A stretch of DNA of 64,000 nt from a virus. The DNA lies in the IMG/VR virus record IMGVR_UViG_3300036770_008166, positions 51,247-115,246 of that record, one strand, 5' to 3'. A program made the position numbers and the translations under genes. Shown here piece by piece: positions 9,868 through 63,926 of this stretch (positions within the stretch are counted from its first letter, which is position 1; each line of letters starts with the position of its first letter). The notes beneath the pieces were generated by a model. The model saw only the letters and a list, made by a program, of their open reading frames with translations, had not been told where the DNA came from and searched no databases.

Positions 9868-11260
9868 GATACTCACATTGTTGCCACCAGTCGCGCATTT
9901 CTGGAAACGTGGCAAGAAAATCTGTATTACGACGCCTATCGTGCTCAGAGAAAAATCTGTAGAAATCGGCTCGGCACCGTTTGAGATATTGTGCGTCTAG
10001 TTTTGCTCCATCTCTCATCCAGGCAATGTCTCGTTCTAATCTTTGTATCTCGAAATCTTTGAATCCTTGAAACGGGGCGTCAGGCCGTTCATGTTGACGT
10101 ATCATCCAAGCCCAAAGGTGGTCCAGCCGATCTGCATAACTTTCTGGCAAGATCTGTAGGCTCTGCCATTCGGGCTTCCTCAGTACCGGAGTATCAAACC
10201 ACACACGTTGATATGTTTGATTATAGGTGCGGCGGAGTCCTAGTATACCGGCAAACAGTTTGTCTAGGCTGGTCACAGATAGATTGTTCATGGTCACGAT
10301 AAAGGTCAGGCTATTTCTGTATGGTATCTCATTGAGAAACTGATTCACTCGATCCCATAAAAGTTCAAAATCCAAACCGTGCCGCATATACTCGGCTTGC
10401 AGGGCCCATCCGTCGATGCTGACATACTGCATAAAATGTTCAAGAATCGGTTGGTCACACAATCGCTTCACGTAGTCTTTGTAGCGTTGCCACAATTTCT
10501 CTTCCACAGAGAAATTGCTGGTCACACAGAGATGCAGATCAAGTTTAGGATTGGCCAGCACATAATCAAACACACGGTAGGTATTGCGATCCATGAGTGG
10601 TTCTCCGCCTGTCATGCGAAAGTGTGTTAGTTCAGGATACAGGTCGGGCCACCAATCCCAGAAAGCTTCGACCCAGGGATTATGTTCACGAGCAGGAATA
10701 GGACGGCGGTCGCCTAGAAAATGATCTGGATGATTGTGCGGGGTGCTGGTAGGATAAGCACCTAGGCGTTGAATTTCGTCTTGCCAGGTGGATGAAAATT
10801 GTGGACTACAATAGCTGCACCGGAGATTGCAAACATGATTGAAGTTGACTTCTACATAGCTGGGTGTCACATCATTCTCATCTCCGGTGAAAGCAATGAT
10901 CCGATCAAAATCTCGACTCGCCCAGGGTTCTCCTGATCTGTAATGACGATCACTCATCTGTCCAAGATCTTCCATGTTCCAACAGTATTGGCATTCAGCA
11001 GGACGCTGGCCCTCTAGCATCATCTTTCGCTGTAGTTTCTTGTGTGTGGTATTGTGCAAAGCGCTGGGACGACGCCCGATTTCGGTCACGGGTATACGGT
11101 GCAGAGGCGGATGATAGCAGGAATTGTTAAGACCGGTTGGGAGATGGAGACTGACCTGCTTCCATTTGGCTAAACATAACGCAGATCCTAGTTTCTCTTT
11201 CATTACATGTGCAGCAGATAGAAAATCACTGGATTTTGTTGGCGAAGCAAGATCAGACAT
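9857..11260 (-). CDS. Radical SAM protein with N-terminal twitch-like Cys/His domain
   Basis: CNLRCSYC, GGEPL, SIDG; N-terminal CLAKW...SCYHP...CQYC. Confidence 0.9.
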   Translation of the reverse strand: MSDLASPTKSSDFLSAAHVMKEKLGSALCLAKWKQVSLHLPTGLNNSCYHPPLHRIPVTEIGRRPSALHNTTHKKLQRKMMLEGQRPAECQYCWNMEDLGQMSDRHYRSGEPWASRDFDRIIAFTGDENDVTPSYVEVNFNHVCNLRCSYCSPQFSSTWQDEIQRLGAYPTSTPHNHPDHFLGDRRPIPAREHNPWVEAFWDWWPDLYPELTHFRMTGGEPLMDRNTYRVFDYVLANPKLDLHLCVTSNFSVEEKLWQRYKDYVKRLCDQPILEHFMQYVSIDGWALQAEYMRHGLDFELLWDRVNQFLNEIPYRNSLTFIVTMNNLSVTSLDKLFAGILGLRRTYNQTYQRVWFDTPVLRKPEWQSLQILPESYADRLDHLWAWMIRQHERPDAPFQGFKDFEIQRLERDIAWMRDGAKLDAQYLKRCRADFYRFFSEHDRRRNTDFLATFPEMRDWWQQCEYHAR

Positions 11261-28900: not shown

Positions 28901-31900
28901 TCACGCTGAGCTGCAGGAGACCGTCGATCACGCTGGCAGTCACATTGGGCACATCTTCGTTGATCACGGCGGCCAGGCCAGCCACAGTATTCGATGGCGC
29001 AGCGGGCACTGCTACATCAATATCATTGATGCGTATGGTATCGCCTGCGCCAAGACTGGACACCGACACAGTGGAACGGATCACACCGTACAGCCTGGCT
29101 TGATTGACATGCCTTTCGATCACACCACCTTTGTAGATCTGGAGACTGCTCTGCGGCGCTGCGATGTAGAGGCTGCAGTTATTGGGGCAGATCTCCAAGG
29201 CCTGTCCAAAGTTGCTAAATTCAGCTGGCACGTCCTGCTCTATGGTCTGGATCGGTCTGAACTGATTGGTTTCGATCTCGATCACGTCACCGATCGAGAG
29301 ATCGGTGTTCAAGGTCACGATGTTGCCATTTACACTGAATGTTTCCGGAGCATTAATCAAACTGTCCTGTTCGTTCACCAGGAATCTGCTGTTCACGGAC
29401 ACAGACACCGGCTCAGTCACGGAACCTAGCACAGTGAACTGCACTGAGCTGTCGGAATTGGGATGCTGACCATACACGAATTTCTGCACATTCCTGTCAA
29501 ACACATACACTGTACCGGCTTCTGTCTCACCGTTGACTATGCGATTCGGTGTGCCAATCATGACCTGGCGACCATCAGTAGTGCAGCTCACCATGGTACC
29601 AAAGGCAGCATCACTGGCCAGACCTGCCACTGTTATGTCGGTGACCTGCTGCCAATATGCCTGGGCGCGCACCAAGATCTCAGAACCGATGGGCGGAACC
29701 GTGATAAAAGTGAGATCTTGTCCCACCGAAGAATCGTCCGCATTGAAATCGTAATCGATATTGGGCCTGTAGAGTTCGCCGTCGACCACTACAGAAAAAC
29801 TGTCAATGGATCCCAAGGTAAAGAAATATTCATTGAGAGACCAAGTGTTGATCAAGGGCGGTGGATCGTACAGCACAGAAGCGCCTAATATTCCTGATAT
29901 CACGCCGGTCGTGGCCGTGACGTCAAATACCAAATCATTGGCAGGAGTGGTGCCATTGGGCCATATGTCATCACCTGCTATGGTCAGCGTTTCGCCGTTG
30001 ACATAACCAGTACCGCCGGCCTGCACTTCCACAGACACTGTGCCGCGCCGGCGTGTCACAGTAAACAGTGCACCTGTTCCAGATCCTCCTGTGGCCGTGA
30101 CGTCCAAATAGATTTCACTGTCTAGATTGACCTGCTTGATGCGCTGAATGATCACAGCCGATGCTGCTGCAGGTGCCGACACAAAAGTCACGGTTCCAAA
30201 ACTGCTGTCCACAGTGTAATCCGTGCCCAATGTCTGCAGTTGTCCATCCACAGTCACCGATATCTGCGTGGCTTCGTCAATCTGTATGCTGTTGTTGATC
30301 ACGAACTGGGTAGTAATACCGTCTCCGGTGGCTTGGACCACTTGATCTTCATAATTCACCCGACCATAGGCGTAGACCCGGTTGGCTCCTGGTGCACCCA
30401 CGTACAACCATCTTTCGTCTTCGCTCATGGCTACACTGCGACCAAATTCAGCAGCACCTGCTGTGACTCCTCCAGGATTGGTCAGCAGCTGCCAGTTGCT
30501 GTAAGGATTGGTGTTGGGTAGGTAGCTGGCAGTGTCTCGGTAAATCACTGACACATAACCTGTGCTGCTGTTGGTGTCTATGCCCAGTGCAGTGCCCGAC
30601 CCAGTGCCTGGGCCCGACGCTGTGAATTGCACACCCACCTCCATGCCAAATATGGTCGTGCTTCCTACAGTCTGGCTGGGATAGACATGATATGTTCCGG
30701 TGAGACCTGTGCCTGACACAAATTTGGTAATATAGGTTCCTGCTGTGACTCCTGACCCCGACAGCACTGTGCCCAGCGACAACGATCCTGATGTGATACC
30801 AGTGACTGTGAGCGTGGAGCTCGCGATGGAACCAGTAACTTCTGCTGTGGGTGCAGCTCCTATGGCTGCAAAGTCAGTGGTGCCCACTGACTGTACGATG
30901 TAATCGGCACCGGGCACAAAATTGCCGGCGAAAGTGACACCCAGACTGAAATCCGCACCTGCCGCAGCCCAGTCTTGATAACCAAAGGTCACGGCATTAC
31001 CAAAGTTCCTGGTGCCCAGATTTGCCAGTTTCAGGATGGCATCTGCTTGATTTACAGGGCTCACAGGATCATATTGCTGTGTGTCTGATCGAACATAGGT
31101 GTACACCGCTCCCTGTCTCACAGGCTCAGTGTCACGGAAATAGCTGGGACTGCCTACCAAGGCTGCAAATCTATTGGCAGCTTGTGCTACGCTGCTACCA
31201 AAGGTCTGGGTAGCATCAGGATCTCTGGGTTCTAAGGTCAGCAGCGCATCGTACACGGCCTGTTTTTCCAGCACCGTCCATCTGCCATCACCGCGATCGT
31301 CGATCCAGACTCTGGCACCGGGGCCCAGCTGATTGGCATAAGGCAGATCAACGATGTCGCTGAACTGGGCCACACGCATGGTTTCCAGCGTAAGACCAAT
31401 GCCCACACCATTGGCCACGGTTCGATCACCGCTAAAACTGAATGCGATGGTGACCTTGGTCAGAGAAGGAACAGTAAGCACTTCATACACTCCGTTCACT
31501 TCCGAATCAAAACCCTTGATGATCAACTTGTCGCCTGCAGACAATCCATGCTGTTGGGTGAAAATCACCAGGCTGGTGCCGTTGAGGTTGTCGCAAACAT
31601 GATTGATGAATCCTGGCACAGCATCTGCACGGTATATGTTCCAGTCATATTCATTGACTCTGGCAGCCCAAATAGTGGTGTCCACTTCAATGTCGTCTAT
31701 GACATCGTTGAGAACGCCGGGTTCGTTGATGTCAAACACCGTGACGTCAGCGTCTTCTATGTTCACATAACCCGCGGTAGGCAAAGAAATGTCTGTGGGC
31801 AGTTCATTGGTCACAGGCAGTATGTCTGGCGAATTGATGCGGAAACTTTCGCGCCAGATATCACTGACCAACACTGTCTGATCTGCCTGGCTGGTCTGCT

Positions 31901-34900
31901 GCGGAACCACGACCTGTACGGTGCTGGGATTGGCATCCAGCAGCGCACGATTGAGACGCAGTTCAAAAAAGCTGCGGTTGGCATTGGCACCGTAAACTGC
32001 GCGTTGTACCGCCCAGTTTTCGTAGATGTCGTATTCTGCGGCCTCCTTGCCAAGATCGGCCTGGCTAAACACACGCGCACTCTGGATGGTGCCTTTGTCG
32101 CCCAGGAACTGTCGGTACACATTGACCTGGCTCACATCGTCGAGATTGAGCGATGTCATGTACTGGCGAGGCCGGAAACCAATGAGACCATAGCTCAAGA
32201 GATCGTTGTCTGTTTCCAGATTCAAAGAATTGATGTCATAGCTATTGGTCAGCTGGTTGGCCTTGGTGGCCAGATTGGGCAACAGACCCAGCTGTATCTT
32301 GGTGTAGTCGCTCTGTATCCAGGCGTTGTAGTTGAATTCCACCGACGGCTGCACGATGGTAGCAGCGCTCCAGTAGTTGCCTTTGTAGAGCACAATCTCG
32401 CCCTTGGCATAGCTGCGATTGCCATCCCATTCCTGGATGTTGTCTTGATTGAGGATGAATCCTTGGGCATCAATGCTGCCATTCCATTCCGTGGTGGTAA
32501 AGGCCACTAGATCCAATCGGCTCTGCCGCGCACCGGTCACAGGATCGTAGATAAGATCGCCAAACACACTGCTGTTATCCAACACGATGATGTGTTCAAA
32601 CGCAGTGTACTTGAGATCTATGAAACTGAGGGTCTGATCAGTGGCCGGTTCTACTGTGAATGTGTTGTCTAGGCGCGTGATGTTGAGATTGCGCGCCGGC
32701 AACTCTCTGCGATTTTGATCCAGCAACACATTTTCGCTGGTCTGCACGTCGATGCTGTCCACCACGGCCTGCGGTCTAGTCACAGACAGACGGAACGCCA
32801 AAGGATTCAGTGCTATGATGGCCTGTTCGTCCCATCCCTGTTGGCTCCAGTACAGGAACTCATTGGCCATCTGTGTCCAGTCCAACACAATTCCGTTGTC
32901 GGTATTGGTAAAGATCAAACCTTGGGTGTCAAGGAATTGGCCATAGCTCAGCAGGAAGTCAGCCACAGCAGTTTCGTTGGACAACACAGTGCCATAGGGT
33001 ATCTGCAGCACCCTGTCAGTGTAGGCTGTGGGCACCTGCACCGTGATACCGGGCACTGAAATGGTCTGCAGCCGGCCGCCTGCCTGGCTCTGCAGCGTGT
33101 TAAAATAGGGCTGGTATGTGCTGTAGCCAAACACTGCATACCCGCCGGCGGTTTTTTGTACCAACACAGCGCTATAACTAGCTCTGGCAAAAGGTTGGTT
33201 TTTGTACAGCAAGAGATCGTAGCTCTCGTCGGGGATCAAGAACGAAGTGTTGGTGCTGCGTGGGCTGGTCTTGTCTGTGAAAATCTTGATGTACTGTTTG
33301 TCGCTGTACGAAGCCATGCGATAGGCCAATCTCACATCCAGGCTTCCCAGATTGTCCTGCAGATCCTGGGTGCTGTCTTGTCCACTTTCGCGGTTGTAGT
33401 CCACAATCCAGTTAATAAAGCTGGCCTTGCTCACACCATTGCCATAGACCACCACACCATCTGCGTCTAGACGATACCTGTCGTCCAGCAGATACTGTTG
33501 GAACTCGGTGTTGAAACGATATCGATCTCGGTCGGCAAACAAGGAAAAGAACTGCGCTGGTCTGGTCACGGCCAGCAGCCTCATCACGGCAAAAGGATAA
33601 GAACTGGAATTCCACCAGGACGCTTCCACTGGGCCACCATCACCGATGCTCCATGACCGACGGAACGAATTGTTGGCGAAGGTACCTACCACAGAGTTCA
33701 GCGGACTCAACAGATCTCCTTGAGGCCCTACTGGCAGTACCCGAGTCAGGCCCGGACGTGCAAATTCGGGTAGCACGTATGCGCCCAGAGGATCTCTCAC
33801 GATGCCGGCTTCTAGATCATCCCACAGCACCAGGTTGCCGTCAGTGTATGGTGCGGTACCATAGGTGTCTTCCCACCACAGTGGCGGTTCAGTGAAGCCC
33901 AGCATCTCCCAGGGTGTCAGTTGAGGTTGTTGGGTATCAAAAAAGTAGCGATTGATACCGCGCCAAGCACCCAGTAGATTTTGGTTGTCCAGTCGATTAG
34001 TGGATCGGCTGTAGTTGTAGGTGAACTCGTTGGCCGCACTGAAATCCTGGGTGCGATAGTCCAATTTGTTCCAGGCCACATAGGCCAAGAAATCCTGCGC
34101 CAGGATGGAAGTGATTTCCTGGAAACTGTATCCAGTGGATCTGAACTGGCCGGGCAGCACATCATACACAGTCAATGGCACAGGATTGCCGTCCAGTTTG
34201 AGATTGTTGTATATGCGTGTTTCAAATTCCAACAACACTTCGTCTCGGATGTCTCCAAACACCGGCGTAAGGCTGCCATCGTGCCCTTGCACAAACTGCT
34301 GCGTGCCAGTGGTAGTGGCTTCAGTGATCAAACCAGGCCTCCAGGCCGGATAGAGACCCAGTTTGGTAGGTGTGTTTGGAATGAAACTGCCTACCGTGGT
34401 GGTGTATTCTCGTATGGTCACTGTGTTGCCTGGAACCAGCGACACCAGCACAGTGATCCTGGGTCCATCAGTGGCTACCACATAATCTCTGCCTCGTGTG
34501 AGTATAGAGCCATTGACATAAACGTTCATGCCCAGATAGTTTGCGGATTCGTAATCATAGACCTGCACAGTGTCAAAGGTCTGGCCTGTGGTCACGCTAA
34601 CTGTGTAGGTGTTCTCTATGTAGACTGCGCCCGAAGGCAGCATGTCGCTCCAGTAAAACGGCTGTGTTTCTCCGCGACCCTGCGTGAGAGTGTCTATAGC
34701 AGTGTCCAGTATGGCAGCAGCGGTCTGGAAATTTATGGTCTGCTTGGTGACATCATCCAGGATGAGATTCTTGATCTTGGTGTATTCTCTGCTATTGAAT
34801 GTCAGGCTGTTGAACACATTGTACTGCTCGCTGCGCATGAAATAGCCGGCCAGGGTCAGGGGAGCGCTCTGTTGTAGGATGGTCAATCCATAGGGCACGA

Positions 34901-37900
34901 TGTTGCCAAGATCTCGGGTGTTATTGGCACCGTTGATCGTGCCCTGAAGTGCGGGCAGATTTTCACAGATACTCTGATAGTGTTGGCGCATGGTGCCCAG
35001 CGTGAATTCGCTGCTGTTCACATTGAATGGGTTGTTTTCAAGATTGATTGGCACCTGATAGAAAGCCACGCGACTGGTCTGGTCGCTTAGGGCTAACACC
35101 TCAATCACCTGGCCTGCGGCCGTGGCGGTTGACAAAGTTATGGTGGTAGAATCTGTGCCAATTTCGTATGTGTAGCTTCCGGGATCCTGGAACACTGATC
35201 CCACGTAGACCTTGACACTGGGCACTGTGCGCTGCCCAGACACTGCCACATCCAGCACCAGCGGAGCACCGTCGTACTGGAATTTGAACTGTTGATATAC
35301 CTGCGCCGCAGTGACAGCAGTTTGCCAACCCAGTAAGCGGCTGAATTGTGTGCGCGATCTGTACTGTCTTGGAGTGCCGTTGCTGATAGATTCAGTGGTG
35401 CTGGCATTCTCACGCGTGTACACGAATTGATCTGTGTAAAGGTAGTTGTCAAACACGATATCGCCGATGTTGGCAATGTTGAGATATTCAAGAGGAATCT
35501 GCAGCACCGAGTCGATCACACCGGCATCATTGACCGCATATCCAAACAGCCGGCTTCCCCGGAAATCTGTGCTGGGGTACTTGGTGGGGTCGCCGAAACT
35601 GACTCCGTCACTGTCATACACATTGAACAGCGGTGCCTGTTGCACACTGGTTTTTTGTTGAGCCAGCAGCCATGCACTGCCATCGAACCAGAAAGTTTTA
35701 CCAGCATTCTCGTCACCAAACAGGCACACAGTGGCCTGATCGGCCAAGACCACACCGTCGGAGGCCAAGGTCAGATTGATGATGGGTTGACCAGTGAACG
35801 GCGGATCTATAGGCGGGTCTGAATCCGGAATCACAAATTCTACCTGCCATATTTTGTTGGCCACATCTGGATCTTCATCAGCGGCAAAGATCACTCGAGT
35901 TCCGTTGACAAAACTGTAGCCATCCACAGAATAGCTGGTACTGCCTTGGATGTCACTGAAGGCATCCGTGGCCGAAAAATCAATGATATCCACTGGCTGT
36001 TTGCCCTGGGTGCCCATGTCATAGAGTCGTAGACCGGCACGGAACTGTACAATGGGCCGTTTGGCACGGAAACGATTGTCCAGCACCGGTACAGTTTCGT
36101 TGTAGTCAGCAGTTGCGTTGATCACATCAATATGGAACCATCGATTGCTGCGGCTCCAGGCATTGAGATCTTGACCAGCTCTATCGATAGTGATATAGTC
36201 AGGATCAGCCGGTTCAGACGCCACGGCGCTGTCATCCTCATCAACCACATAGGCTTCTGGAGTGATGAAATCAGTGACCGGCAACAGCTGGATGGCTGTG
36301 CCAACTCCGGCCACGTAGTATTCGCGATAGTTTATGGCAGTGGCCGACATGGTGCCCAGACCATTCTGCAACGACACGGCCGAGCCCGAAGGTGTAAGAC
36401 TCACAGTGAACTGGAATCCATTCACAATGGTTTGAACGTAGTAGTCTGTGCCGGCCGTGAGACCCCCCAGCGTAGGAGCAGCGAACACGATGCGCTGTCC
36501 CACGTAGAGATCTTCCGTGGTAAAGGTCGTTATAGTATCGAACTCGCTGTCGGTCTGGGTGCAGTCGAATGAAAAATTTCCAGAACCAAAACTGGCAGGT
36601 ACCACATCACCTTCAAATATCACTTTTAGGCCGTTGGTGAATACCACTCCGTTGGGCGATGTGTAGTTGGTGCTGTTCAGGATGTCTTCAACAAAAATCG
36701 TTTCGCTGTCAGAAGGCTCAATGATCTTGAACACGCCGAAGATTTCTGGATCTGTGCCGTCCTGATAATACAAGGTATCCAAATTGGCGGTCAGCAAGGG
36801 AATCTGTTGGAACTGGTCTTGATCGGTCTTGAACCATCCGGTGTTGCTGAACTGATTGCCGTATCTAATGGTGAACTTGTTCAGCACCGGGATTGTGGCC
36901 ACAGACGAAAGATTGATATAGGTTATGCCATTTATCACTGGCAGAGTGATCTGCCACAGCTGACGGCGCTGGTCCAGGGGTATTTCAGTGACTTGGTCAA
37001 ACAGCGTGGTATCATAGCTGCCGATTTGGCCATTGTTGGCTGTGATCTGTGCCAAGGGATCAAAAAAGGTGGTTCTCAACCAACCGCCGGCCACGGCATC
37101 ATCCACGGGCACATCAAACACCAAGGTTCGGTTGGCCAGGTAGGTTATGCCATCTATGCCTCCGTACTGGGCGATAAAAGTATCCAGGCGCTGATTGTTG
37201 ATCTGATCAAATTTTAAATTGGTTATGAGATCGACCGGAGTCGCGAATTCTGCGAGATCGAAATAGAACTGCTGCGCTGTCTTGGTTGGTACATCGAAGG
37301 TGACTGTGCCAAGATCTGTGCCGTTGTTGATCACACCAAACACGTCTCGGCTGCTGATATTGGGTGTGGTAGGAATGCGTCCGCTGATGCCAGGATTGGT
37401 CTGGATCCAGAATCCTGGCCCTGTGCCGCTGTCTCCGTCCACTATGTTCAATATGCCTTGCATGTTGCTTTGATTTTGGCTCACATAGTACAGGGTGTCT
37501 GGAGCGTCTTGGGGTACCACGAAAGTGACCAGCCCTGTGATGCTGCCGTTGCGCGTGACTCCTACTGAGTAGGCATCCTGTGTGCCCAGTGTGGGCGCTG
37601 TCTTGATCCAGAATGGGAAATCACCGCGCAGGGTGAGATTGAACACATAGGTATTGCCGCGCGCCAAGGTCAAGGTAGGATTGGGCTGTGCATCTATGAG
37701 ATAGGCCGCGGTCTGTTGATTGGTCACACGGTAGTTTACAGTCTCCTTGGCATTCTGTGCCACGGAAAATGTGTAGGTTCCTCCGCGCACCAGTTCGATC
37801 TGAGGATTTTCTCCGGGAACACCACTGAAGGTGTACACACCATTGGCCCTGGTCACTGTAAAGTTGTCAGTGATGGGCACCCCTGTTGAGCGCACAGACA

Positions 37901-38327
37901 CTGCATCCGGCCCGCCTGGCAGCCAAAAATACTGACTGTAGTTGATCAAGGTATCAAAATCAACCATGGGATCCCAGGCATAATATTCACTGGTGAACAG
38001 TCGGTCTGGTCTTGTCTGGGTGCCGCCTTGATAGCCAATGGCATCCAGCAAACCGGGATAGGTGATGAGATCCTGCACATCATCGGTATCAGGTTTGAGA
38101 CTGATCACTGCCGGCTCAAGCTGATAATCGGCGCGTGTTTTGTCAGGCTCTACGATGTAGCGATCATCTGGATCAACGCCTGGTCCCACCGAGCGTCCAA
38201 TGTAGCCTTCACTTTTGCGGAACCTGGGTTCTTGTATCAGTGTGTCCAGAGTGGCAGCCAGGAACTGTCTGTTGGCCGGTGTCTGGAAAATCTCTGGCAG
38301 GAAATCTACTGAACGGGTGCGAGCCAT
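22986..38327 (-). CDS. Giant (5113 aa) baseplate wedge/tail-associated multidomain protein
   Basis: Uninterrupted ORF directly after gp6-like. YIQEVKPYH wedge-type motif, FG-GAP-like repeats, CBM5/12-like modules and Ig-like VxVDG...DY repeats. Confidence 0.85.
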
Positions 38328-52582: not shown

Positions 52583-53034
52583 GCACAGTGGCCTTGACTG
52601 GACACACACGCGGGTTGGGATTTCTAATCAACAACGCACTGACGTCGCGCGATCATATCATAGTAGGATTTAGCAGATCTACTGGATGCGATATCAGAGA
52701 TTACACCCAGGTTGGAAGAATGATTGAAACCGTAAAAAACTTTGATTGGTTTATCAATTGTGCTCATCCAGATTATTGTCAATCTCAAATAGCCTATCGG
52801 CTGATGAGTAATGGATTTCGCGGAAAAATTTTGAACATTGGAAGCCCTGCGGTGCACGATCCACCTTTGTGGACTGATCTATCGTTGTTAGAGTACTTAA
52901 CACAGAAAACTGCTCTTTATCATGCACATCAGGTCTTAGTCAAGCTATATCCAGATCAATTATTGATCTGGGAACCCGATCATACAGATGATCAAAAATA
53001 CGTAATCGAAAATTTAACCCGCATCGGATTATGA
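52579..53034 (+). CDS. Minimal short-chain dehydrogenase/reductase-like protein
   Basis: VALTGHTRGLG (TGxxxGxG), FINCA, ILNIGS and YLTQK (YxxxK); only 151 aa. Confidence 0.75.
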   Translation: MSTVALTGHTRGLGFLINNALTSRDHIIVGFSRSTGCDIRDYTQVGRMIETVKNFDWFINCAHPDYCQSQIAYRLMSNGFRGKILNIGSPAVHDPPLWTDLSLLEYLTQKTALYHAHQVLVKLYPDQLLIWEPDHTDDQKYVIENLTRIGL

Positions 53035-54233
53035 CACCGGAAGACTTTACCAAACATCCTGCCTTGTGTGCTTTACCTTGGCACGGCATTTACATCAATC
53101 CCGACGGCGCTGTGAAAAACTGCGCTATCAGCGCACAGACTCTTGGTAATATACACGATTCACAGTTGCCCGATATCATGAACAATGTCCATAATCGTGA
53201 GATCCGACAAGACATGTTGTCAAAGATCAAGCATGCTCGATGCGATAGCTGTTATCAAGTCGAACATAATTCAGGCAGTGACAATGAAAACGAAAGTAAT
53301 CGATCTTGGTATAAAAAAGTCACGTTAAAGCACGAGTCAGATTTCGATTTTTTTGATCGAGTTGACAATTTTGTGCCTGTGGTCTTGGATTTGAGATGGC
53401 GTAACACCTGCAATCAGGCATGCGTGTATTGCGGCCCAGATCTCAGCAGCCTTTGGGCCGAGAAGGTCAATCACCCGTTTAGAATCAACGACCAGATTTT
53501 GACACAGTCTAAAGAATGGATTTTTTCTAATTTAAAATCTGTAAAACATGTTTATCTTGCAGGGGGTGAACCGCTGTTGATCAAAGAAAATCAACGATTA
53601 CTGGAAAAATTATTAGAAGAAGTTCCAGATGTAGACATACGCATCAATACCAATCTTAGTAGCATCGACAATCCAATTTTCCGGTTATTAAAAAAATTTG
53701 CGAATGTCAAATGGACAGTAAGTGTAGATTCTAAAGAAGAACTATTTGAATACATGCGCTGGCCAGGTCACTGGAAAACATTTCTCTACAATCTTAAGGT
53801 ACTGCAGAGCATCGTGGGGGATCAAATCAACTTTAACATGGTCTGGTGTATACTCAATGACATAGACATCATTGACACAATAGATTGTCTTATTGATCAA
53901 GGTTACCATGAAAACATGTTTGTAGTCCAATGTCTAACAGATCCTTCGCCTTTGAGCATACTTCATTTACCGATATCACAAAAGAAAGACTTACAGCAAC
54001 AAATACTAGATCGCCAAAATCGTTGCAATCAAGATTGGTGGCTTTACAAAAGCCTTTGTTCAATGTATAATTTCTTAGATCGAGATTTGAAAGAACCTAG
54101 AAACATCTCGTTCCAGGGGCAACAACCTCTGTCCAGTGGGCTACAAGGAACTTTTGAATATCTGAAATACATAGACAAGATACAGAATAAAGACAGTCGC
54201 AATATTTTTCCAAGATTATACCAACATCAATGA
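53031..54233 (+). CDS. Radical SAM protein with N-terminal twitch-like domain
   Basis: CNQACVYC, GGEPLL, NTN, SVDS; N-terminal CALPW...NC...CDSC. Confidence 0.9.
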   Translation: MTPEDFTKHPALCALPWHGIYINPDGAVKNCAISAQTLGNIHDSQLPDIMNNVHNREIRQDMLSKIKHARCDSCYQVEHNSGSDNENESNRSWYKKVTLKHESDFDFFDRVDNFVPVVLDLRWRNTCNQACVYCGPDLSSLWAEKVNHPFRINDQILTQSKEWIFSNLKSVKHVYLAGGEPLLIKENQRLLEKLLEEVPDVDIRINTNLSSIDNPIFRLLKKFANVKWTVSVDSKEELFEYMRWPGHWKTFLYNLKVLQSIVGDQINFNMVWCILNDIDIIDTIDCLIDQGYHENMFVVQCLTDPSPLSILHLPISQKKDLQQQILDRQNRCNQDWWLYKSLCSMYNFLDRDLKEPRNISFQGQQPLSSGLQGTFEYLKYIDKIQNKDSRNIFPRLYQHQ

Positions 54234-55993
54234 TACAGATCCAAGATCTCACAGTCCGAAACTTCATGAGCGTGGGCAATGCTACACAGGCTATCAACTT
54301 TGATCGCAGAGATCTCACGCTGGTGTTGGGCGAGAATCTCGATCTCGGCGGAGACGGATCTAGGAACGGTACAGGCAAAACCACCATCATCAATGCTCTC
54401 AGTTACGCGTTGTATGGTCAAGCACTCACAAACATCCGCCGAGACAATCTCATCAACAAGACCAACGCCAAGAACATGTTGGTCAGTCTGGACTTCTCCG
54501 TGAATGGGCGAGATTACCGGGTAGAGCGAGGTCGCAAGCCCAATGTGTTGCGTCTCTATGTCAACAACGAAGAACAACAGGCCATAGACGATGCACAGGG
54601 CGACAGCCGCGAAACACAGGAGGCCATAGAATCTGTGCTGGGCATGACACACGATATGTTCCGACATATCCTGGCGTTAAACACCTACACTGAACCGTTC
54701 TTGAGCCTCAAGGCCAATGACCAACGTGCTATCATTGAGCAACTGCTGGGCATCACACTACTAAGTGAACGTGCTGAGAAGATCAAAGAACTCAACCGTG
54801 CTACCAAAGATGCTATCAGCCAAGAAGAGATGCGCATCCGTGCTGTGCAGGAAGCCAACAAACGCATCGAAGAGCAGATCGCCAGTCTCGAAAAGCGTCG
54901 CACCTTGTGGCTCAACAAGCAGGCCGAAGATGTCAAAGGATTTGCAGATGCTATCTCTGCATTGGAACACATCGACATCGAGGCCGAAGTGCAAGCGCAC
55001 AGAGATCTCGAACTCTACCACGGACAAAAGAAGCAGATCGACGAGCATCACAAGTGGATACGGCAGATCGATCAAGACAACTCAAAATTAGAAAAAGACA
55101 GTGCCAAACTCAAACGCGACATCGATGCGCTAAAAGAACATCGATGCCATGCCTGTGGTCAAGAACTGCACGATTCAAAGCAAGACGAGATCCTGGCAGA
55201 GAAGCAAAAGAATCTTCAAGAGATTGGCCTGCAACTCTTGGCCAACGACACACAGCGGCATGAGCACCTCAATGAGATCGACGATCTTGGCGAATTGGGT
55301 ACTGCACCCACGGTGTTCTATGACGATCTCGAGCAGGCGCTCAACCACAAGAACAGCCTAGATGGATTGCGCCGAGACCTTGCTAATCGTTCTGCGGAAA
55401 CAGATCCTTATACCGAACAGATTGATGACATGCGTGGGCAAGCCCTCCAGGAAGTCACATACGACACTGTCAACGAACTTACCCGTGTGTTCGAGCATCA
55501 GGACTTCTTATTGAAACTGTTGACCAACAAAGATTCATTCGTTCGCAAGAAGATCATCGAACAGAACTTGAGTTATCTCAATCAGCGTCTCACACACTAT
55601 CTAGACAGGATCGGATTGCCACATCAGGTGATCTTCCAAAACGATCTCACGGTGGAAATTACCGAGTTGGGTAGAGATCTAGACTTTGATAATCTTAGCA
55701 GAGGTGAACGCAATAGATTGATACTATCAATGAGCTGGGCGTTCCGCGATGTATGGGAGAGCCTGTATCATCCTATCAATGTATTGTTTATCGACGAATT
55801 GGTAGATTCTGGGATGGATACACAGGGTGTAGAAAACAGTCTAGCCTTGTTGAAGAAAATGAGCAGGGAACGCAACAAGAGCATTTGGCTTGTTTCGCAC
55901 AGAGATGAGCTGGCTGGGCGTGTAGAAAACATCCTGCGTGTGGTCAAAGAGAATGGATTCACTTCATATAATACGGATATCGATATCGCGTGA
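54230..55993 (+). CDS. gp46: Recombination ATPase (Rad50/SbcC-like)
   Basis: NGTGKTT Walker A, coiled coil with CHAC zinc hook, LSRGE signature, FIDE Walker B, SHR. Confidence 0.93.
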   Translation: MIQIQDLTVRNFMSVGNATQAINFDRRDLTLVLGENLDLGGDGSRNGTGKTTIINALSYALYGQALTNIRRDNLINKTNAKNMLVSLDFSVNGRDYRVERGRKPNVLRLYVNNEEQQAIDDAQGDSRETQEAIESVLGMTHDMFRHILALNTYTEPFLSLKANDQRAIIEQLLGITLLSERAEKIKELNRATKDAISQEEMRIRAVQEANKRIEEQIASLEKRRTLWLNKQAEDVKGFADAISALEHIDIEAEVQAHRDLELYHGQKKQIDEHHKWIRQIDQDNSKLEKDSAKLKRDIDALKEHRCHACGQELHDSKQDEILAEKQKNLQEIGLQLLANDTQRHEHLNEIDDLGELGTAPTVFYDDLEQALNHKNSLDGLRRDLANRSAETDPYTEQIDDMRGQALQEVTYDTVNELTRVFEHQDFLLKLLTNKDSFVRKKIIEQNLSYLNQRLTHYLDRIGLPHQVIFQNDLTVEITELGRDLDFDNLSRGERNRLILSMSWAFRDVWESLYHPINVLFIDELVDSGMDTQGVENSLALLKKMSRERNKSIWLVSHRDELAGRVENILRVVKENGFTSYNTDIDIA

Positions 55994-57018
55994 TAGTCTG
56001 GGACCATTGGCACATCGAACCATCAAGCATCTGTACACTGAAATGTCCTAGATGCCCTAGAGCCGAAGTACCCGAGAGCCTGCTGAATCGACAACTGACT
56101 CTAAAATTTTTTCAAGATCAGATTGGAGCCGACGTCGTGAGTAAAATACGCAAGATCACGTTTTGTGGCAACGATGGTGATCCCATCTACTGTAAAGAAT
56201 TACTGGAAATATGTGTTTGGCTCAAGACCGTGAATCCCGATATCCATCTCGTCATAATCACCAATGGCAGTTATAAAACAACCGAATGGTGGCGTGCGTT
56301 GGGTCGCGTGCTGGATCATCGAGACGAAGTCAACTGGAGTATAGACGGTTGGGATCAAACCAGTAATGAACAGTATCGTGCGAACTGCAATTGGGATTCG
56401 ACCCTGTCAGGCATGCAAGCATTCTGCAAAGTCAATCAGTCTACCTACCGCGTATGGGCCGCTATCGCTTTCCGCTTCAATCAAGATCGATTAGGGGATA
56501 TGCAGGTCATGGCACAAGCATTAGGCATGGATCTGTTCCAGATCACTAAGAGCACCAAGTTTGGTAGCCACTATCCTGAGACCTACGGAGTATCGGATCC
56601 TTTGTGCCCAGATCGTGCGGATCTGGTGAGTTCTACCCATAGATTTGAAAGAGTACTGGAGCCCATAACTGATCGTGCTCGCCCAGGAGAACTGCTCAAA
56701 GAAATTTTCTGGAGCCGAGCACAAGATCTAGATAAACACAAGCAGTATTCAGGTATCTGTCTCATAGGCAACAAAGGTGTATTTCTCAACAGTCAAGGCG
56801 AATTCTATCCCTGTTGTTGGACAGCCAATCGCTACCCTCACAATAGCCGATGGCATGAACAGGCCAAAGAACGTTTCAATCTTTGGTACAGGAATTTCTC
56901 AGACATAATAGCAGATAATTTTTGGCGGACAGAATTTTTGGCGTTTAACAGTCAAGAGTGTGCAACGAAATGCACATCCGACAGATTAAAAGATAGAGAG
57001 CATGTAACAGAATGGTAA
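55990..57018 (+). CDS. Radical SAM protein with C-terminal twitch domain
   Basis: CTLKCPRC, GNDGDP, TNGS, SIDG; C-terminal C...PCCW...CATKC. GTGA overlap with the gp46 stop. Confidence 0.9.
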   Translation: MIVWDHWHIEPSSICTLKCPRCPRAEVPESLLNRQLTLKFFQDQIGADVVSKIRKITFCGNDGDPIYCKELLEICVWLKTVNPDIHLVIITNGSYKTTEWWRALGRVLDHRDEVNWSIDGWDQTSNEQYRANCNWDSTLSGMQAFCKVNQSTYRVWAAIAFRFNQDRLGDMQVMAQALGMDLFQITKSTKFGSHYPETYGVSDPLCPDRADLVSSTHRFERVLEPITDRARPGELLKEIFWSRAQDLDKHKQYSGICLIGNKGVFLNSQGEFYPCCWTANRYPHNSRWHEQAKERFNLWYRNFSDIIADNFWRTEFLAFNSQECATKCTSDRLKDREHVTEW

Positions 57019-57021
57019 TTA
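57014..57021 (+). promoter_or_regulatory. Late promoter variant GGTAATTA
   Basis: TAATTA-CACAGC-ATG, the same geometry as the TAAATA sites before gp25 and the tube-initiator gene. Confidence 0.4.
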
Positions 57022-57027
57022 CACAGC

Positions 57028-57468
57028 ATGACATGGCTGTACGAATCCAACGAAATCACAGCGATACCGGAAGAATATGCCGGGTTTGTGTATCTCATAA
57101 CCAATACACAGACTGGCAGGATGTACATTGGCAAAAAATTATCAAAGTTTAGCAAGACCACATACCGCACAGAGAAACTCAAGAACGGCAAGAAACGACG
57201 CAGAAAAATCAAGGGCAAGATCGAAAGTGACTGGCAGACCTACTATGGATCCAGTCCAGAACTCACCAGAGACGTACAAGCATTAGGCACAGAAAATTTC
57301 CGACGCGAGATATTGTATTACTGCCGAAGCAAGGCTGAATGCAGTTATATAGAGGCTCGAGAACAATTCCGCCGCAGGGTACTTGAATCAGACGAATACT
57401 ACAATGGTCACATACAGGTTCGAGTGCATGGCTCACACATCAAAGGCAAACTAGGCACTAACGGCTAA
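57028..57468 (+). CDS. Stand-alone GIY-YIG-family nuclease-domain protein
   Basis: GFVY-N10-YIG, YYGSS, conserved Glu (YIEAREQ) and YYN; basic insert KLKNGKKRRRKIK; no C-terminal DNA-binding repeats. Confidence 0.8.
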   Translation: MTWLYESNEITAIPEEYAGFVYLITNTQTGRMYIGKKLSKFSKTTYRTEKLKNGKKRRRKIKGKIESDWQTYYGSSPELTRDVQALGTENFRREILYYCRSKAECSYIEAREQFRRRVLESDEYYNGHIQVRVHGSHIKGKLGTNG

Positions 57469-57955
57469 CACCGGCCAACATCGGGTGTCCTAGACCTGGA
57501 TCTCAGATCACAGGGACGGAAGCCTCGCCGCGCCAGCGAGCACTCAACCACTACCCCCCGGGATGACGACGTCTTTAAGACCTGACGTTTGGTTGTTGGA
57601 AAAGGATAACAGGCAAAATGAGAGGAGAAAAACCTCAGGCACTCAATCTGTGATAGCGTATGGATTGTGTGTTGCCGTTGTGATAAGACGGAACGAGCAG
57701 GTACCGGACAACCGCCTGCGATTGCACAAAAAAAATGTGTGGCTAGCCAAAATATTTGGGCTAGTTTGTATAGATTTTTGTGTGAATAGTTCTAACGCTG
57801 TGTGACTGCGCCACTCGGATGATGCAGAATATCTTGGCCCGTTCGCGGGCTAAGTGTGACCACTTGATCTGGATGATACTGCATACTCGCTTCGCTCGTT
57901 TGATTAATATCATCGATGAACGAAGTGACATCGATAGACTTGCGCAGCAAGTCTC
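57469..57955 (+). ncRNA. Candidate ~490-nt structured non-coding element (RNA or ssDNA structure), family unknown
   Basis: The only large gap in a gene-dense window. At least 10 hairpins, several needing G-U pairs on the + strand, a UUCG-capped stem (57833-57854) and two GTGTGAC-N10-GGATGAT units. Confidence 0.6.
57800..57877 (+). repeat. Two direct copies of GTGTGAC-N10-GGATGAT (period 54 nt)
   Basis: 57800-57823 (spacer TGCGCCACTC) and 57854-57877 (spacer CACTTGATCT), separated by the UUCG hairpin. Confidence 0.85.
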
Positions 57956-58288
57956 CTAGAACTGATCGGGCCAGTCTCTCCAAAGTGCGTGTTGAATGTT
58001 TCCTGCAACGAACTGATTGAAACTTTTGTGTTTTTCTTCAAGTTCGCCTTCTAATGGAGCGACACGACGGAATGCCTCGTCCATCTGTGCCATGTCACGG
58101 AACTCCATAATAATAAGCCATTCTGGCATGTCCGCGATGCTGCGGAATCCCATCTTGCAACGCGTGATCCTGTAGCTTTGCATCTTGCCTTCTGAGATCA
58201 AGTGATCAAAGAATTGTTTCATTCCATTGACCCAGTCAATGTCAGAAATGTCGCCTTGTTTGTCAGCCCATATAGTGTAAAGATCCAT
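57956..58288 (-). CDS. Small dimeric alpha/beta-barrel-like protein (DUF6614-like)
   Basis: 110 aa; TRCKMGF...EWLIIMEF...DEAF and ALWRDWPD pattern (family recalled, not searched). Confidence 0.55.
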   Translation of the reverse strand: MDLYTIWADKQGDISDIDWVNGMKQFFDHLISEGKMQSYRITRCKMGFRSIADMPEWLIIMEFRDMAQMDEAFRRVAPLEGELEEKHKSFNQFVAGNIQHALWRDWPDQF

Positions 58289-58723
58289 CTATTTCATCCT
58301 TCCTAAAAGTTCAAAACCTTCGAGATCCAACATGTAAGGTTCTACTGACTCAAAATACATCCAACGGAATCCTCGGTCTCGATATATTGCACATTCGGTT
58401 TCAATGCTGCGGATGCCTAGGCGCAGGCGCGGATCTCGATAATCCCATGCAAAATGATCGCTGAGAATGTTGTCCTTGTCCCAGATCCGGTACATGCTCC
58501 ACGCCACCAAGCGGCCATGATCATGGTAGCCTATGATTTCTGTAGCAGCATCCGTGAGTCGACCTGGTATCATGGGTATCACGCTCTGGAAATGCTTGTG
58601 CAGGCAGTAGTCGCGATAGACACGGAGCACATCATTCACCGGCACCGGCTGCAACAGTTGCCATTCAAGGTCAATCTGATATTGGGTGCGTTCGAGATCT
58701 ATGCGCCCAAATTGCCAACTCAT
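58289..58723 (-). CDS. GNAT-fold protein resembling the C-terminal domain of Arg/Leu-tRNA-protein transferase (ATE/Bpt)
   Basis: GYHDHGRLVAWS...FAWDYRDPRLRLGIRSIETECAIYRDRGFRWMY parallels ATE_C (GkLvAv...yDP...sLG.ys.l.EI..ar..g..y.Y). Confidence 0.6.
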   Translation of the reverse strand: MSWQFGRIDLERTQYQIDLEWQLLQPVPVNDVLRVYRDYCLHKHFQSVIPMIPGRLTDAATEIIGYHDHGRLVAWSMYRIWDKDNILSDHFAWDYRDPRLRLGIRSIETECAIYRDRGFRWMYFESVEPYMLDLEGFELLGRMK

Positions 58724-59217
58724 GATCTTGGATCCGTACGATTTTCAAACAAGATTTTCAAGTAGCTTTCGGGCCAGTCTTGATAGTACCCTTTTTCGGC
58801 CAGCATGCGAGCATGGCTGTCCAACTTGCTCAAGGACTGCACAAACGCTATGGCCCAACGGCCCTGGTTCATGATCACTCCGTTTATCACCTCTGGATCA
58901 TCAGGGTGGTCGGCCAGAGCTATGAGATTCCTGGGCCTAAGAAAACCAGTGTTCACTGTGCGCACTTCGTGATTGAAATCTGCACTGTCAAAATCAGCAG
59001 CATCATACACAAAGGCCAGCACATCAAGATCGCCAATGTCGACGTGCATGAGATCTATGTAAGGTCCAAGTCGTCCGGCCTGGATCTCTAGTTTGTTGTC
59101 TAGGCGTGCCCGACGGGCATAAGGGCACGGTGCCCAACCCGTGAGTTTAGGATGCGGCTGCTCCACGAACGTGGTCAGCCATGTCATAATGTCCTGTCTG
59201 GCCTGTTCGATGTCCAT
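58720..59217 (-). CDS. Hypothetical protein (DUF1415-like CP[FY]A motif)
   Basis: WLTTFVE...PCPYARRA...DHP; coupled to its neighbours. Confidence 0.55.
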   Translation of the reverse strand: MDIEQARQDIMTWLTTFVEQPHPKLTGWAPCPYARRARLDNKLEIQAGRLGPYIDLMHVDIGDLDVLAFVYDAADFDSADFNHEVRTVNTGFLRPRNLIALADHPDDPEVINGVIMNQGRWAIAFVQSLSKLDSHARMLAEKGYYQDWPESYLKILFENRTDPRS

Positions 59218-63410: not shown

Positions 63411-63926
63411 ATGGCAGAACACGATTCTCGCATATTCTATGTGTATCAATATGTAAATGAAGGCGGTCAACCGTACTACATTGGAAAAGGATCTGGCAGA
63501 CGGTTACATCGACTGCACACACGAACCCAATTACCTCCTGTTGAACGCAGGGTAATTATTCAGGACGGATTAACAAACGATGAGGCAAAAAAACTTGAGG
63601 GCGAGTTAATTTCGAAGTATAAAAGAAAAATTGATGGCGGTCTGTTAGATAATATCAAAATCAATCAATGGGCGTGCGCAGTTGGTTGGAAGCATTCTGA
63701 AGAAACCAAAAGAAAGATTTCCGAAGGCAATAAAGGAAAAAAACGAACCCCTGAGCAGTTAAAGAATTATAAAGGAACTGTGACTGCAGAGCACAGAGAA
63801 AAAGTCAGACTAGCCAATCTTGGAAGACCGTACGATCCAGTTCGAGCCAAAAAAATTTCTGACACATTAAAAAAATATTTTGCCGCAAAAAAAGCAGCAA
63901 AATTGATGGAGCAGGACAATGGCTAA
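63411..63926 (+). CDS. Free-standing GIY-YIG homing endonuclease with NUMOD3 motifs
   Basis: FYVY...YYIGKG..RR, conserved E and N; HSEETKRKISEGNKGKKRTPE (NUMOD3); AT-rich relative to its flanks. Confidence 0.85.
   Translation: MAEHDSRIFYVYQYVNEGGQPYYIGKGSGRRLHRLHTRTQLPPVERRVIIQDGLTNDEAKKLEGELISKYKRKIDGGLLDNIKINQWACAVGWKHSEETKRKISEGNKGKKRTPEQLKNYKGTVTAEHREKVRLANLGRPYDPVRAKKISDTLKKYFAAKKAAKLMEQDNG

What the first reader, a model, noticed from the sequence alone, without database searches (positions are those of the whole stretch)
57028..57955. Minimal GIY-YIG protein directly followed by a ~490-nt structured non-coding element: candidate nuclease-RNA system or structured origin
Seen: genes in this window mostly abut or overlap, yet 57469-57955 has no credible ORF and is packed with stems. 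These are 57468-57488, 57495-57514, 57524-57540, 57545-57595, 57622-57636, 57644-57667, 57697-57719, a long stem at 57721-57787, a UUCG-capped stem at 57833-57854, 57912-57935 and 57936-57954. Several pair only through G-U on the + strand (e.g. CAATCTGTG/TATGGATTG), which points to a + strand RNA co-oriented with the GIY-YIG gene and starting at its stop codon. The 146-aa protein is only a catalytic domain with a very basic insert (KLKNGKKRRRKIK) and lacks the NUMOD-type arm seen in the homing endonuclease at 63411. Inference: specificity could come from the RNA (a ribonucleoprotein, possibly RNA-guided), or the element is a cis-acting origin/processing site that this protein nicks. I could not match it to tmRNA, RNase P, 6S or intron cores.
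Basis: partly seen in the sequence, partly recalled or inferred. Interest (0 to 1): 0.85.

Follow-up and report, generated by a model that had tools for sequence, protein, structure and literature searches.

The report
Full-length Polynucleobacter-1 twin-box phage RNA
The gene-free stretch behind a small nuclease gene of this uncultured giant T4-like lake phage encodes a real, knotted non-coding RNA of about 495 bases; only its first third is catalogued (the unexplained Polynucleobacter-1 motif), the rest shows one 7-letter word twice, and nothing shows that it guides the nuclease.

Summary
Window 57463-57955 (+) is one conserved structured RNA. Its first 136 nt are a full-length match to Rfam RF01718, Polynucleobacter-1 (106 bits, gathering score 37).

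RF01718 is itself an orphan motif and covers only a third of the unit. In 100 related phage contigs the whole RNA is 409-548 nt. It has about 15 supported helices and three pseudoknots. 85% of cells pair, against 36-45% when the partners are slid, and 88 of 111 pairs show compensatory changes.

The 3' domain carries two identical 7-nt words, 57817-23 and 57871-77 (GGAUGAU here). There are ten word variants and at least 39 switches on the tree, and the two copies are identical in every RNA. No complement was found.

The nuclease looks like a syntenic neighbour rather than a partner:
- The whole gp46 / GIY-YIG / RNA / baseplate neighbourhood is conserved.
- Unrelated genes are inserted between the ORF and the RNA in five loci.
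- One locus has a PD-(D/E)XK nuclease in place of the GIY-YIG.
- More distant GIY-YIG homologues in cultured phages lack the RNA.
- GIY-YIG sequence tracks the word least of the four proteins tested.

Function is unknown. This scan has already found this RNA family on many other phage contigs.

The parts
57028..57468 (+). 146-aa SegE-type GIY-YIG nuclease gene with no DNA-binding domain. It is the syntenic upstream neighbour of the RNA.
   Evidence: Pfam PF19835, 116 bits, residues 3-129. The GxxY, YIG, R93, E109 and N126 columns are invariant in 17 homologues. More than 599 relatives occur in viral contigs.
57463..57955 (+). The whole non-coding RNA, about 495 nt here and 409-548 nt in relatives.
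   Evidence: Conserved end to end in 114 distinct loci. 21 helices with 111 pairs were counted on alignment A3. The 5' edge is fixed by gene insertions that fall just before it.
57463..57598 (+). 5' domain, equal to Rfam RF01718 Polynucleobacter-1.
   Evidence: 106.2 bits against a gathering score of 37, model positions 1-141 of 141. The same match lies behind the GIY-YIG gene in 18 of 20 loci by Rfam and 69 of 80 loci by my own model.
57463..57476 (+). Pseudoknot a: 57463-65 (the ORF's last sense codon, GGC) pairs with 57474-76 in the loop of the first hairpin.
   Evidence: 90% paired, and all 3 pairs show changes on both sides (helix 1).
57639..57672 (+). Long hairpin whose loop (57653-58) forms pseudoknot b.
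   Evidence: 13 pairs, 12 with double changes, 88% paired (helix 11).
57653..57801 (+). Pseudoknot b: 57653-58 pairs with 57796-801.
   Evidence: 96.2% paired, and all 6 pairs show double changes (helix 12).
57677..57712 (+). Pseudoknot c: 57677-81 (GUUGU) pairs with 57708-12 (ACAAC) inside the loop of hairpin 57697-719.
   Evidence: 99.2% paired. GUUGU/ACAAC switches to GUCAU/AUGAC (helix 13).
57700..57716 (+). Most conserved stretch of the RNA, GGUACCGGACAACCGCC.
   Evidence: 86-97% column identity. Used as a pattern, it retrieves further phage loci.
57721..57787 (+). Variable hairpin insertion, private to this copy in sequence.
   Evidence: 76-98% gaps in the alignment. Other hairpins of other sequence occupy the same site in about a quarter of relatives.
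57691..57792 (+). Helix 57691-94 / 57789-92, which closes the central domain around the variable site.
   Evidence: 94.5% paired, 4 of 4 pairs with double changes, and the top covariation score in the RNA (helix 14).
57817..57823 (+). Twin box 1 (GGAUGAU), preceded by ACUC.
   Evidence: Identical to box 2 in 109 of 109 RNAs, with 10 word variants.
57833..57854 (+). UUCG-capped hairpin between the two boxes.
   Evidence: 89% paired (helix 17).
57871..57877 (+). Twin box 2 (GGAUGAU), preceded by AUCU.
   Evidence: As for box 1. The spacing between boxes is 47-60 nt with no period of three. At least 39 word switches are inferred on the RNA tree.
57936..57954 (+). Terminal hairpin, the likely 3' end of the RNA. 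No U tract follows it.
   Evidence: 92.9% paired, 8 of 8 pairs with double changes (helix 21). No terminator-like site was found.
57956..58288 (-). Convergent DUF6614 gene that bounds the RNA. It is present in only part of the family.
   Evidence: Pfam PF20319, 81.6 bits. Synteny table.

Best explanation
Window 57463-57955 (+) is a stand-alone gene for a large, multiply pseudoknotted non-coding RNA of T4-like freshwater giant phages. It is the full-length form of the orphan Polynucleobacter-1 RNA.

Shown:
- It is an RNA on the + strand, 410-550 nt long.
- It has about 15 covarying helices and three pseudoknots.
- It sits in a fixed place, the convergent gap between the gp46 / (radical SAM) / GIY-YIG operon and the baseplate operon.
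- Its 3' domain displays two unpaired 7-nt words that are always identical to each other. The word has changed dozens of times.

Inferred:
- It is made as the tail of the upstream operon and trimmed. No promoter or terminator was found.
- It acts in trans as a folded scaffold. The scaffold offers the same word twice to one reader with two equivalent sites.
- The GIY-YIG nuclease is a conserved neighbour, probably a domesticated Seg-type enzyme, and not a demonstrated partner.

My sub-confidences: real full-length RNA 0.9; independent of the nuclease 0.7; two-site reader model 0.4.
For: - Rfam match at 106 bits. The same motif lies behind the same gene in 18 of 20 and 69 of 80 loci.
- Conservation runs 360 nt past the Rfam model.
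- Structure counts on 100 sequences: 85.1% paired against 36-45% when slid; 88 of 111 pairs with double changes; covariation score 0.38 against 0.06-0.10; 0 of 500 shuffles reach it.
- G-U cells exceed A-C cells, 953 to 438.
- Twin boxes are identical in 109 of 109 RNAs, with 10 words and at least 39 switches.
- No complement lies in the RNA or its flanks.
- Five unrelated genes are inserted exactly between the ORF and the RNA.
- Synteny of the whole neighbourhood is conserved.
- In L138 the GIY-YIG is replaced by a PDDEXK_15 nuclease.
- Cultured-phage GIY-YIG homologues lack the RNA.
- GIY-YIG columns track the word least.
Against: - No transcript data.
- The GIY-YIG gene precedes the RNA in about 98% of evaluable loci and lacks any DNA-binding domain. 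This is also what a partnership would predict.
- A second, unrelated nuclease at the same position (L138) can be read as 'a nuclease belongs with this RNA'.
Confidence: 0.55

Rival explanations
1. The GIY-YIG gene (and the PD-(D/E)XK gene of L138) are free-standing homing endonucleases parked beside a conserved RNA gene. The DNA of that RNA gene supplies their cleavage site in phages that lack them, as T4 segB sits in the tRNA cluster. On this reading the RNA has its own, unrelated function.
For: - Established behaviour of T4 Seg and Mob enzymes (my knowledge).
- A different nuclease family sits at the same position in L138.
- The junction between the ORF and the RNA is an insertion hot spot with five different cargo genes.
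- The protein is a member of the SegE family.
Against: - The gene is present in about 70 of 71 evaluable RNA loci. It is conserved at 65-90% identity with intact catalytic columns, not patchy or decaying.
- It has no DNA-binding domain.
- Almost no RNA-only loci exist that could serve as recipients.
Confidence: 0.2
2. The RNA and the DNA-binding-domain-less GIY-YIG form a ribonucleoprotein. The RNA gives the nuclease its specificity (for example the twin words pair with a target) or its regulation.
For: - Adjacent and co-oriented, with a 6-nt overlap in this window.
- Linkage in at least 95% of loci.
- The protein is a bare catalytic domain with a basic stretch.
- The same 2010 survey that reported Polynucleobacter-1 also reported HEARO (its alignment file appears in the supplement list). 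From my knowledge, HEARO later proved to be a guide RNA of the IscB nuclease.
Against: - Unrelated genes are tolerated between the ORF and the RNA.
- The whole neighbourhood is syntenic, so linkage is uninformative.
- The GIY-YIG can be replaced.
- Family members in cultured phages lack the RNA.
- There is no hypervariable end segment like a guide; both RNA ends are conserved helices.
- GIY-YIG columns track the word least.
- No complement of the extended word recurs in six phage records.
Confidence: 0.08
3. The element acts in cis on the upstream mRNA or on both convergent transcripts. It would be an elaborate 3' untranslated region that blocks exonucleases, ends transcription, or insulates the two operons.
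For: - It starts at the stop codon and ends in a conserved hairpin at the stop codon of the convergent gene.
- No promoter of its own was found.
- It always sits at the convergent junction.
Against: - No U tract or terminator-like site.
- Three pseudoknots, near-invariant unpaired stretches and co-evolving twin words are far more than stability needs.
- The RNA is kept unchanged whichever gene lies upstream.
Confidence: 0.1
4. The twin words are DNA sites for a sequence-specific protein, like iterons or operators of an origin, packaging site or recombination site. The region would then work mainly as DNA.
For: - Short direct repeats that stay identical while changing between relatives are typical of iterons and operators that co-evolve with their protein (my knowledge).
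- The location is a junction of operons.
Against: - The surrounding 400 nt evolve under RNA base-pair constraint with G-U asymmetry.
- Box spacing drifts between 47 and 60 bp, so helical phase is not kept.
- The bases just before the two boxes differ in a fixed way (ACUC against AUCU).
Confidence: 0.05

Closest known systems
Polynucleobacter-1 RNA motif (Rfam RF01718; Weinberg et al. 2010, Genome Biol 11:R31, PMC2864571)
   Same: Window 57463-57598 matches the whole model at 106 bits. It has the same hairpins, the same fresh-water setting and the same position downstream of one protein family.
   Different: The catalogued motif is 141 positions and is typed as a small RNA of unknown role. Here it is only the 5' third of a 410-550 nt RNA. 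The remaining two thirds, two further pseudoknots and the twin boxes are not in Rfam. The 2010 survey found no instance in its purified-phage sequences; here all instances are in phage contigs.
Large ornate orphan RNAs of bacteria and phages (GOLLD, ROOL, OLE, raiA; e.g. bioRxiv 10.1101/2024.12.08.627333)
   Same: Several hundred nucleotides, many helices and pseudoknots, strongly conserved unpaired stretches, partly phage-borne, and function unknown or only recently approached.
   Different: No sequence or model match: the Rfam search at E up to 10 found nothing else. None of those families is known to me to carry co-evolving identical words. Self-assembly was not tested here.
Nuclease guide RNAs of mobile elements (HEARO/omega RNA of IscB, reRNA of TnpB; review PMC13565253)
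   Same: A structured RNA abuts and is co-oriented with a small nuclease gene.
   Different: Those nucleases are RuvC/HNH proteins with RNA-binding parts, and their RNAs end in a variable guide next to a transposon end. Here the nuclease is a bare GIY-YIG domain, both RNA ends are conserved helices, and the pair can be separated or the nuclease swapped.
T4 Seg-type free-standing GIY-YIG homing endonucleases (SegB in the tRNA / stable RNA cluster, SegE)
   Same: Same catalytic family (PF19835). A nuclease gene sits next to a stable-RNA gene in a T4-like phage.
   Different: Seg enzymes, as I recall, carry a C-terminal DNA-binding region and are patchily distributed. This protein has neither property.

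Membership tests
Rfam RF01718 Polynucleobacter-1 | Covariance-model score at or above the curated gathering score over the full model | tested here: met
   106.2 bits against 37, model positions 1-141 of 141, + strand.
Rfam RF01718 Polynucleobacter-1 | The model's hairpins are kept by compensatory changes | tested here: met
   Helices 2, 4, 6 and 7 are 81-99% paired with double changes; helices 8 and 9, also within the model's span, are weaker (77% and 71%).
Rfam RF01718 Polynucleobacter-1 | Lies downstream of the GOS11034 / PSSM2_218-like gene family (2010 supplement) | tested here: inconclusive
   It always lies behind the GIY-YIG gene, and homologues occur in many cyanophages. Identity of this gene with GOS11034 / PSSM2_218 was not checked directly.
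GIY-YIG nuclease, SegE type (Pfam PF19835) | Profile match above the cut-off | tested here: met
   116 bits against 25, profile positions 1-123 of 123.
GIY-YIG nuclease, SegE type (Pfam PF19835) | Catalytic motif residues (GIY, YIG, Arg, Glu, Asn) kept | tested here: met
   G19 F20 V21 Y22, Y33 G35, R93, E109 and N126 are invariant in 17 sequences. Their assignment to catalytic roles is from my knowledge of the family.
Free-standing homing endonuclease | Separate DNA-binding domain that gives a long target site | tested here: not met
   Only 17 residues follow the catalytic domain, and there is no second Pfam domain.
Free-standing homing endonuclease | Patchy presence among close relatives | tested here: not met
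   Present in about 70 of 71 evaluable loci that were found through the RNA alone.
RNA-guided nuclease systems (IscB/TnpB-type) | Variable guide segment at one end of a conserved scaffold RNA | tested here: not met
   Both ends are conserved helices. The only fast-changing parts are the internal twin words and a hairpin insertion.
RNA-guided nuclease systems (IscB/TnpB-type) | Physical complex of nuclease and RNA, with RNA-dependent cleavage | not testable with these tools
   Needs co-purification and cleavage assays.
Group I intron carrying a GIY-YIG gene | Intron core recognisable and flanked by exons of a host gene | tested here: not met
   No intron family appears among Rfam matches at E up to 10. 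The upstream gene ends with its own stop codon, and the downstream gene is on the other strand.
Intrinsic terminator | GC-rich hairpin followed by a U tract | tested here: not met
   No terminator-like site was found in 56500-58800. The terminal hairpin 57936-54 has no U run after it.

The most novel reading that the evidence does not exclude
The twin 7-nt words are the specificity element of a new kind of RNA-directed machine. One version: the folded RNA arms the adjacent GIY-YIG, which has no DNA-binding domain (or whichever nuclease sits there), against a nucleic acid bearing the complementary word. Another version: the two identical words are the terminal redundancy of a template, so that a copied primer can jump from one to the other, as in telomerase-like repeat synthesis. 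My evidence lowers both versions but excludes neither. Linkage to a nuclease gene is near-universal. Mixed intermediates of the words are never seen. That absence fits reading by strict Watson-Crick geometry, as in a polymerase or nuclease active site.
Probability: 0.04. Interest if true: 0.92.

Novelty: new variant of a known kind. Interest (0 to 1): 0.6.

Why it matters
Large, intricately folded RNAs without a known function are rare. Past examples turned out to be ribozymes, guide RNAs or self-assembling cages.

This one is abundant in uncultured T4-like lake phages. It was found in hundreds of contigs here, and earlier in this scan in more than 200 genomes. At 410-550 nt it is small enough for cryo-EM.

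It also carries a clean evolutionary signal: two words that are always identical, across dozens of independent switches. That signal says a specific reader exists.

For genome annotation, the practical result is that RF01718 should be extended about three-fold and typed as a phage RNA.

Tried and rejected
1. tRNA, tmRNA and all other Rfam families. No tRNA in the window, and nothing but RF01718 at E up to 10.
2. Intrinsic terminator or own sigma-70 promoter. None found.
3. Coding, or an endless reading frame between the boxes. In this window the 54-nt unit is open in one frame. Across relatives the spacing is 47-60 nt with no period of three, and 64 of 109 units have no open frame.
4. A partner for the words inside the RNA. 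There is no exact complement and no third covarying column. With G-U allowed, 32 of 100 words fit the U/G-rich stretch near 57584-93. That stretch pairs with any purine-rich word, shows no covariation with the boxes, and does not fit the GCAUAAU word by inspection of one sequence (L016), so I treat it as spurious.
5. A partner in the flanks. There is no positional peak of the complement within 3-10 kb.
6. A partner elsewhere in the phage. The 11-mer ATCTGGATGAT occurs twice more in this genome, inside minus-strand ORFs. In five other phage records with the same word, one of them 99% complete, it occurs only as the box itself. I take the extra copies as chance.
7. GIY-YIG, o58, o280 or gp46 residues as readers of the word. 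GIY-YIG gives the weakest association. The others only mirror phylogeny.
8. A phage reverse transcriptase for a template-jump model. No PF00078 match in five records.
9. The anticodon-loop and start-site mimic ideas failed on inspection of the word variants. The complement would put a pyrimidine at tRNA position 37, and half the words have AUA rather than AUG.
10. Bacterial copies. 
11. Sequencing runs for expression.
12. Near-DNA relatives among deposited phages. None found.
13. The window-specific helix 57822-27 / 57879-84 is not conserved, at 41% paired.

Full report
**What is there**

The finding covers a 146-aa ORF (57028-57468, +) and the 487-nt gap up to the stop codon of a convergent ORF (57956-58288, -). 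Pfam assigns the first ORF to the SegE-type GIY-YIG domain (PF19835, 116 bits, residues 3-129). It assigns the convergent ORF to DUF6614. The genes around them abut or overlap, so the gap does stand out. The window is the last 64 kb of a 115-kb IMG/VR virus record that is rated 33% complete. Upstream lie a gp46-like ATPase and two radical-SAM genes. Downstream lie a T4 baseplate protein and a 1024-aa ORF that looks like a tail protein to me, which I did not test.

**The known part**

A scan of the whole window against Rfam gives one match. RF01718, Polynucleobacter-1, lies at 57463-57598 on the + strand. It scores 106.2 bits against a gathering score of 37 and covers the full model. A permissive scan of 57300-58100 adds nothing credible. 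ARAGORN finds no tRNA or tmRNA.

The only paper in the held library that names the motif is Weinberg et al. 2010. Its supplement says that most examples lie downstream of one gene family (GOS11034, PSSM2_218-like). It also says the 3' half is not always detected and that no example was detected in any sequenced purified phage. The family itself, however, is unexplained.

**The unknown part**

More than 599 viral contigs encode relatives of the GIY-YIG protein, and I fetched 80 of them.
- Rfam finds the motif directly behind the gene, on the same strand, in 18 of 20 loci.
- My own model, built from those hits, finds it in 69 of 80 loci.
- DNA conservation does not stop at the end of the Rfam model. 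It runs on to about 57955. Columns such as 57699-57718 are 86-97% identical across 54 distinct loci.
- A 17-mer from that stretch retrieved 80 more phage loci independently of the protein.

The unit is 409-548 nt long in 100 sequences that are less than 93% identical to one another. The window's copy is long because of a hairpin insertion at 57721-57787. About a quarter of relatives carry other hairpins at that site, and the rest carry almost nothing.

**Structure**

I derived helices from covariation and counted them on a fresh alignment of the 100 sequences.
- 85.1% of cells form standard pairs, against 36-45% when the 3' partners are slid by 1-3 columns.
- 88 of 111 pairs show changes on both sides.
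- The covariation score is 0.38, against 0.06-0.10 for the slid controls. No shuffle out of 500 reaches the observed values.

Three pseudoknots are supported:
- 57463-65 with 57474-76 (90% paired)
- 57653-58 with 57796-801 (96%)
- 57677-81 with 57708-12 (99%)

The helix 57822-27 / 57879-84 is not conserved (41%), and 57912-35 is weak (65%). G-U cells outnumber A-C cells 953 to 438 on the + strand. Together with the strand-specific model match, this fixes the strand.

**The twin boxes**

After I had established the extended RNA, I looked up this scan's notes. They show that earlier agents met the same family on many other contigs and reported two identical 7-letter words. I tested that lead myself.
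- In the window the words are 57817-23 and 57871-77, both GGAUGAU. They are preceded by ACUC and AUCU respectively.
- Across 109 homologous RNAs there are ten words of the form RNAURAN, and the two copies are identical in all 109.
- In a mutual-information scan the box columns pair with each other by identity. They have no third partner.
- On a tree built from the RNA without the boxes, the word changes at least 39 times (21 times at position 1). Still, no sequence has unequal copies.

There is no complement in the RNA. There is no positional peak in the 3-10 kb flanks. The extended word does not recur in five other phage records, so the two extra copies in this genome look like chance. There is no conserved reading frame and no three-base periodicity between the boxes. 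There is no reverse transcriptase in these phages.

**Partner or neighbour**

1. The whole neighbourhood is syntenic. The order is gp46, sometimes a radical-SAM gene, GIY-YIG, the RNA, then on the other strand (DUF6614, two ORFs), a 58-aa ORF and the baseplate gene. Linkage of nuclease and RNA therefore says no more than linkage of gp46 and the RNA.
2. In five loci a different, unrelated gene of 208-341 aa sits exactly between the GIY-YIG stop and the RNA start. The RNA keeps its 5' sequence in each. This fixes the RNA's 5' edge. It also shows that the 6-nt overlap with the ORF in this window is tight packing and not a requirement.
3. In L138 the GIY-YIG is absent. An 84-aa ORF and a PDDEXK_15 nuclease (PF24608, 104.8 bits) stand between gp46 and the RNA.
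4. Homologues of 40-48% identity exist in cultured phages (Methylophilales phage Melnitz, cyanophages, Sinorhizobium phages and others). They lie in other contexts, with gaps of at most about 150 nt behind them and no trace of the RNA.
5. GIY-YIG alignment columns associate with the word less (normalised information 0.20-0.40) than columns of gp46 or the baseplate protein do (0.4-0.8). The latter simply follow phylogeny.

Against all this, the nuclease is present in about 70 of 71 evaluable loci that were found through the RNA alone. It keeps its catalytic columns, and it has no DNA-binding domain. I therefore rate a particle as unlikely but not excluded.

**Most likely mechanism**

I read the element as an autonomous phage RNA gene. 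It is probably transcribed with the upstream operon and trimmed. The mature RNA folds into a compact, knotted scaffold. Its 3' domain holds out two copies of one short word for a reader with two equivalent sites.

The complete absence of mixed G/A states, despite many switches, argues against a wobble-tolerant RNA duplex. It also argues against independent drift. It fits a reader that enforces exact geometry. It would equally fit direct box-to-box contact. These steps are inference. Nothing about expression, processing or binding has been shown.

**Novelty and score**

The 5' third is a known Rfam family. The full-length architecture, the two further pseudoknots, the twin boxes and the firm assignment to T4-like phages do not appear in the papers I could search. 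This scan has already reported the same RNA family on many other phage contigs, so the present window adds another member plus the tests listed above.

I class it as a new variant of a known kind and score interest at 0.6. It is a real orphan large RNA with an unusually clear, unexplained evolutionary signal. The exciting reading offered by the first stage is not supported.

Noticed in passing
L138:8587-9551: In one related phage contig the GIY-YIG gene is replaced by an 84-aa ORF and a PDDEXK_15 nuclease (PF24608, 104.8 bits). The Polynucleobacter-1 RNA follows as usual. So two unrelated nuclease families can occupy the slot in front of this RNA.
   Followed up: partly
L014:3312-4238, L025:3648-4274, L057:3432-4268, L054:3426-4274, L011:3426-4451: Five different, mostly unannotatable genes (one weakly methyltransferase-like) are inserted exactly between the GIY-YIG stop and the RNA start. 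This junction is an insertion hot spot.
   Followed up: partly
window 22986-38327 (-): A single open reading frame of 5113 aa, very large even for a giant phage. Not examined.
   Followed up: no
window 63411-63926 (+): A second GIY-YIG gene of 171 aa. Its C-terminal half carries basic repeats of the NUMOD kind (seen by eye; no profile search was run). It sits right after the 1024-aa ORF.
   Followed up: no
window 53031-54233 and 55990-57018 (+): Two radical-SAM genes (one with a SPASM domain) flank the gp46-like ATPase gene. The second is present in only part of the related contigs.
   Followed up: partly
window 10723-10734, 28677-28688, 57866-57877: The 12-mer GATCTGGATGAT (box 2 with its lead-in) occurs three times on the + strand of this window. 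Two of the copies lie inside minus-strand ORFs. Five related phage records show no such extra copies, so this is probably chance.
   Followed up: yes
phage records (e.g. NC_015287.1, NC_027204.1): Many deposited cyanophage and rhizobiophage records label the homologue of this GIY-YIG protein 'NAD synthetase'. Pfam places the window's homologue in the SegE GIY-YIG family instead (the deposited proteins themselves were not scanned).
   Followed up: no
L023, L033, L035, L045, L047, L049, L078, L079 (downstream of the GIY-YIG gene): Loci whose RNA no longer matches the Polynucleobacter-1 model or the conserved 17-mer still carry the twin boxes, including a new word, ACAUGAA. The 3' domain is therefore the more durable hallmark of the family.
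   Followed up: partly
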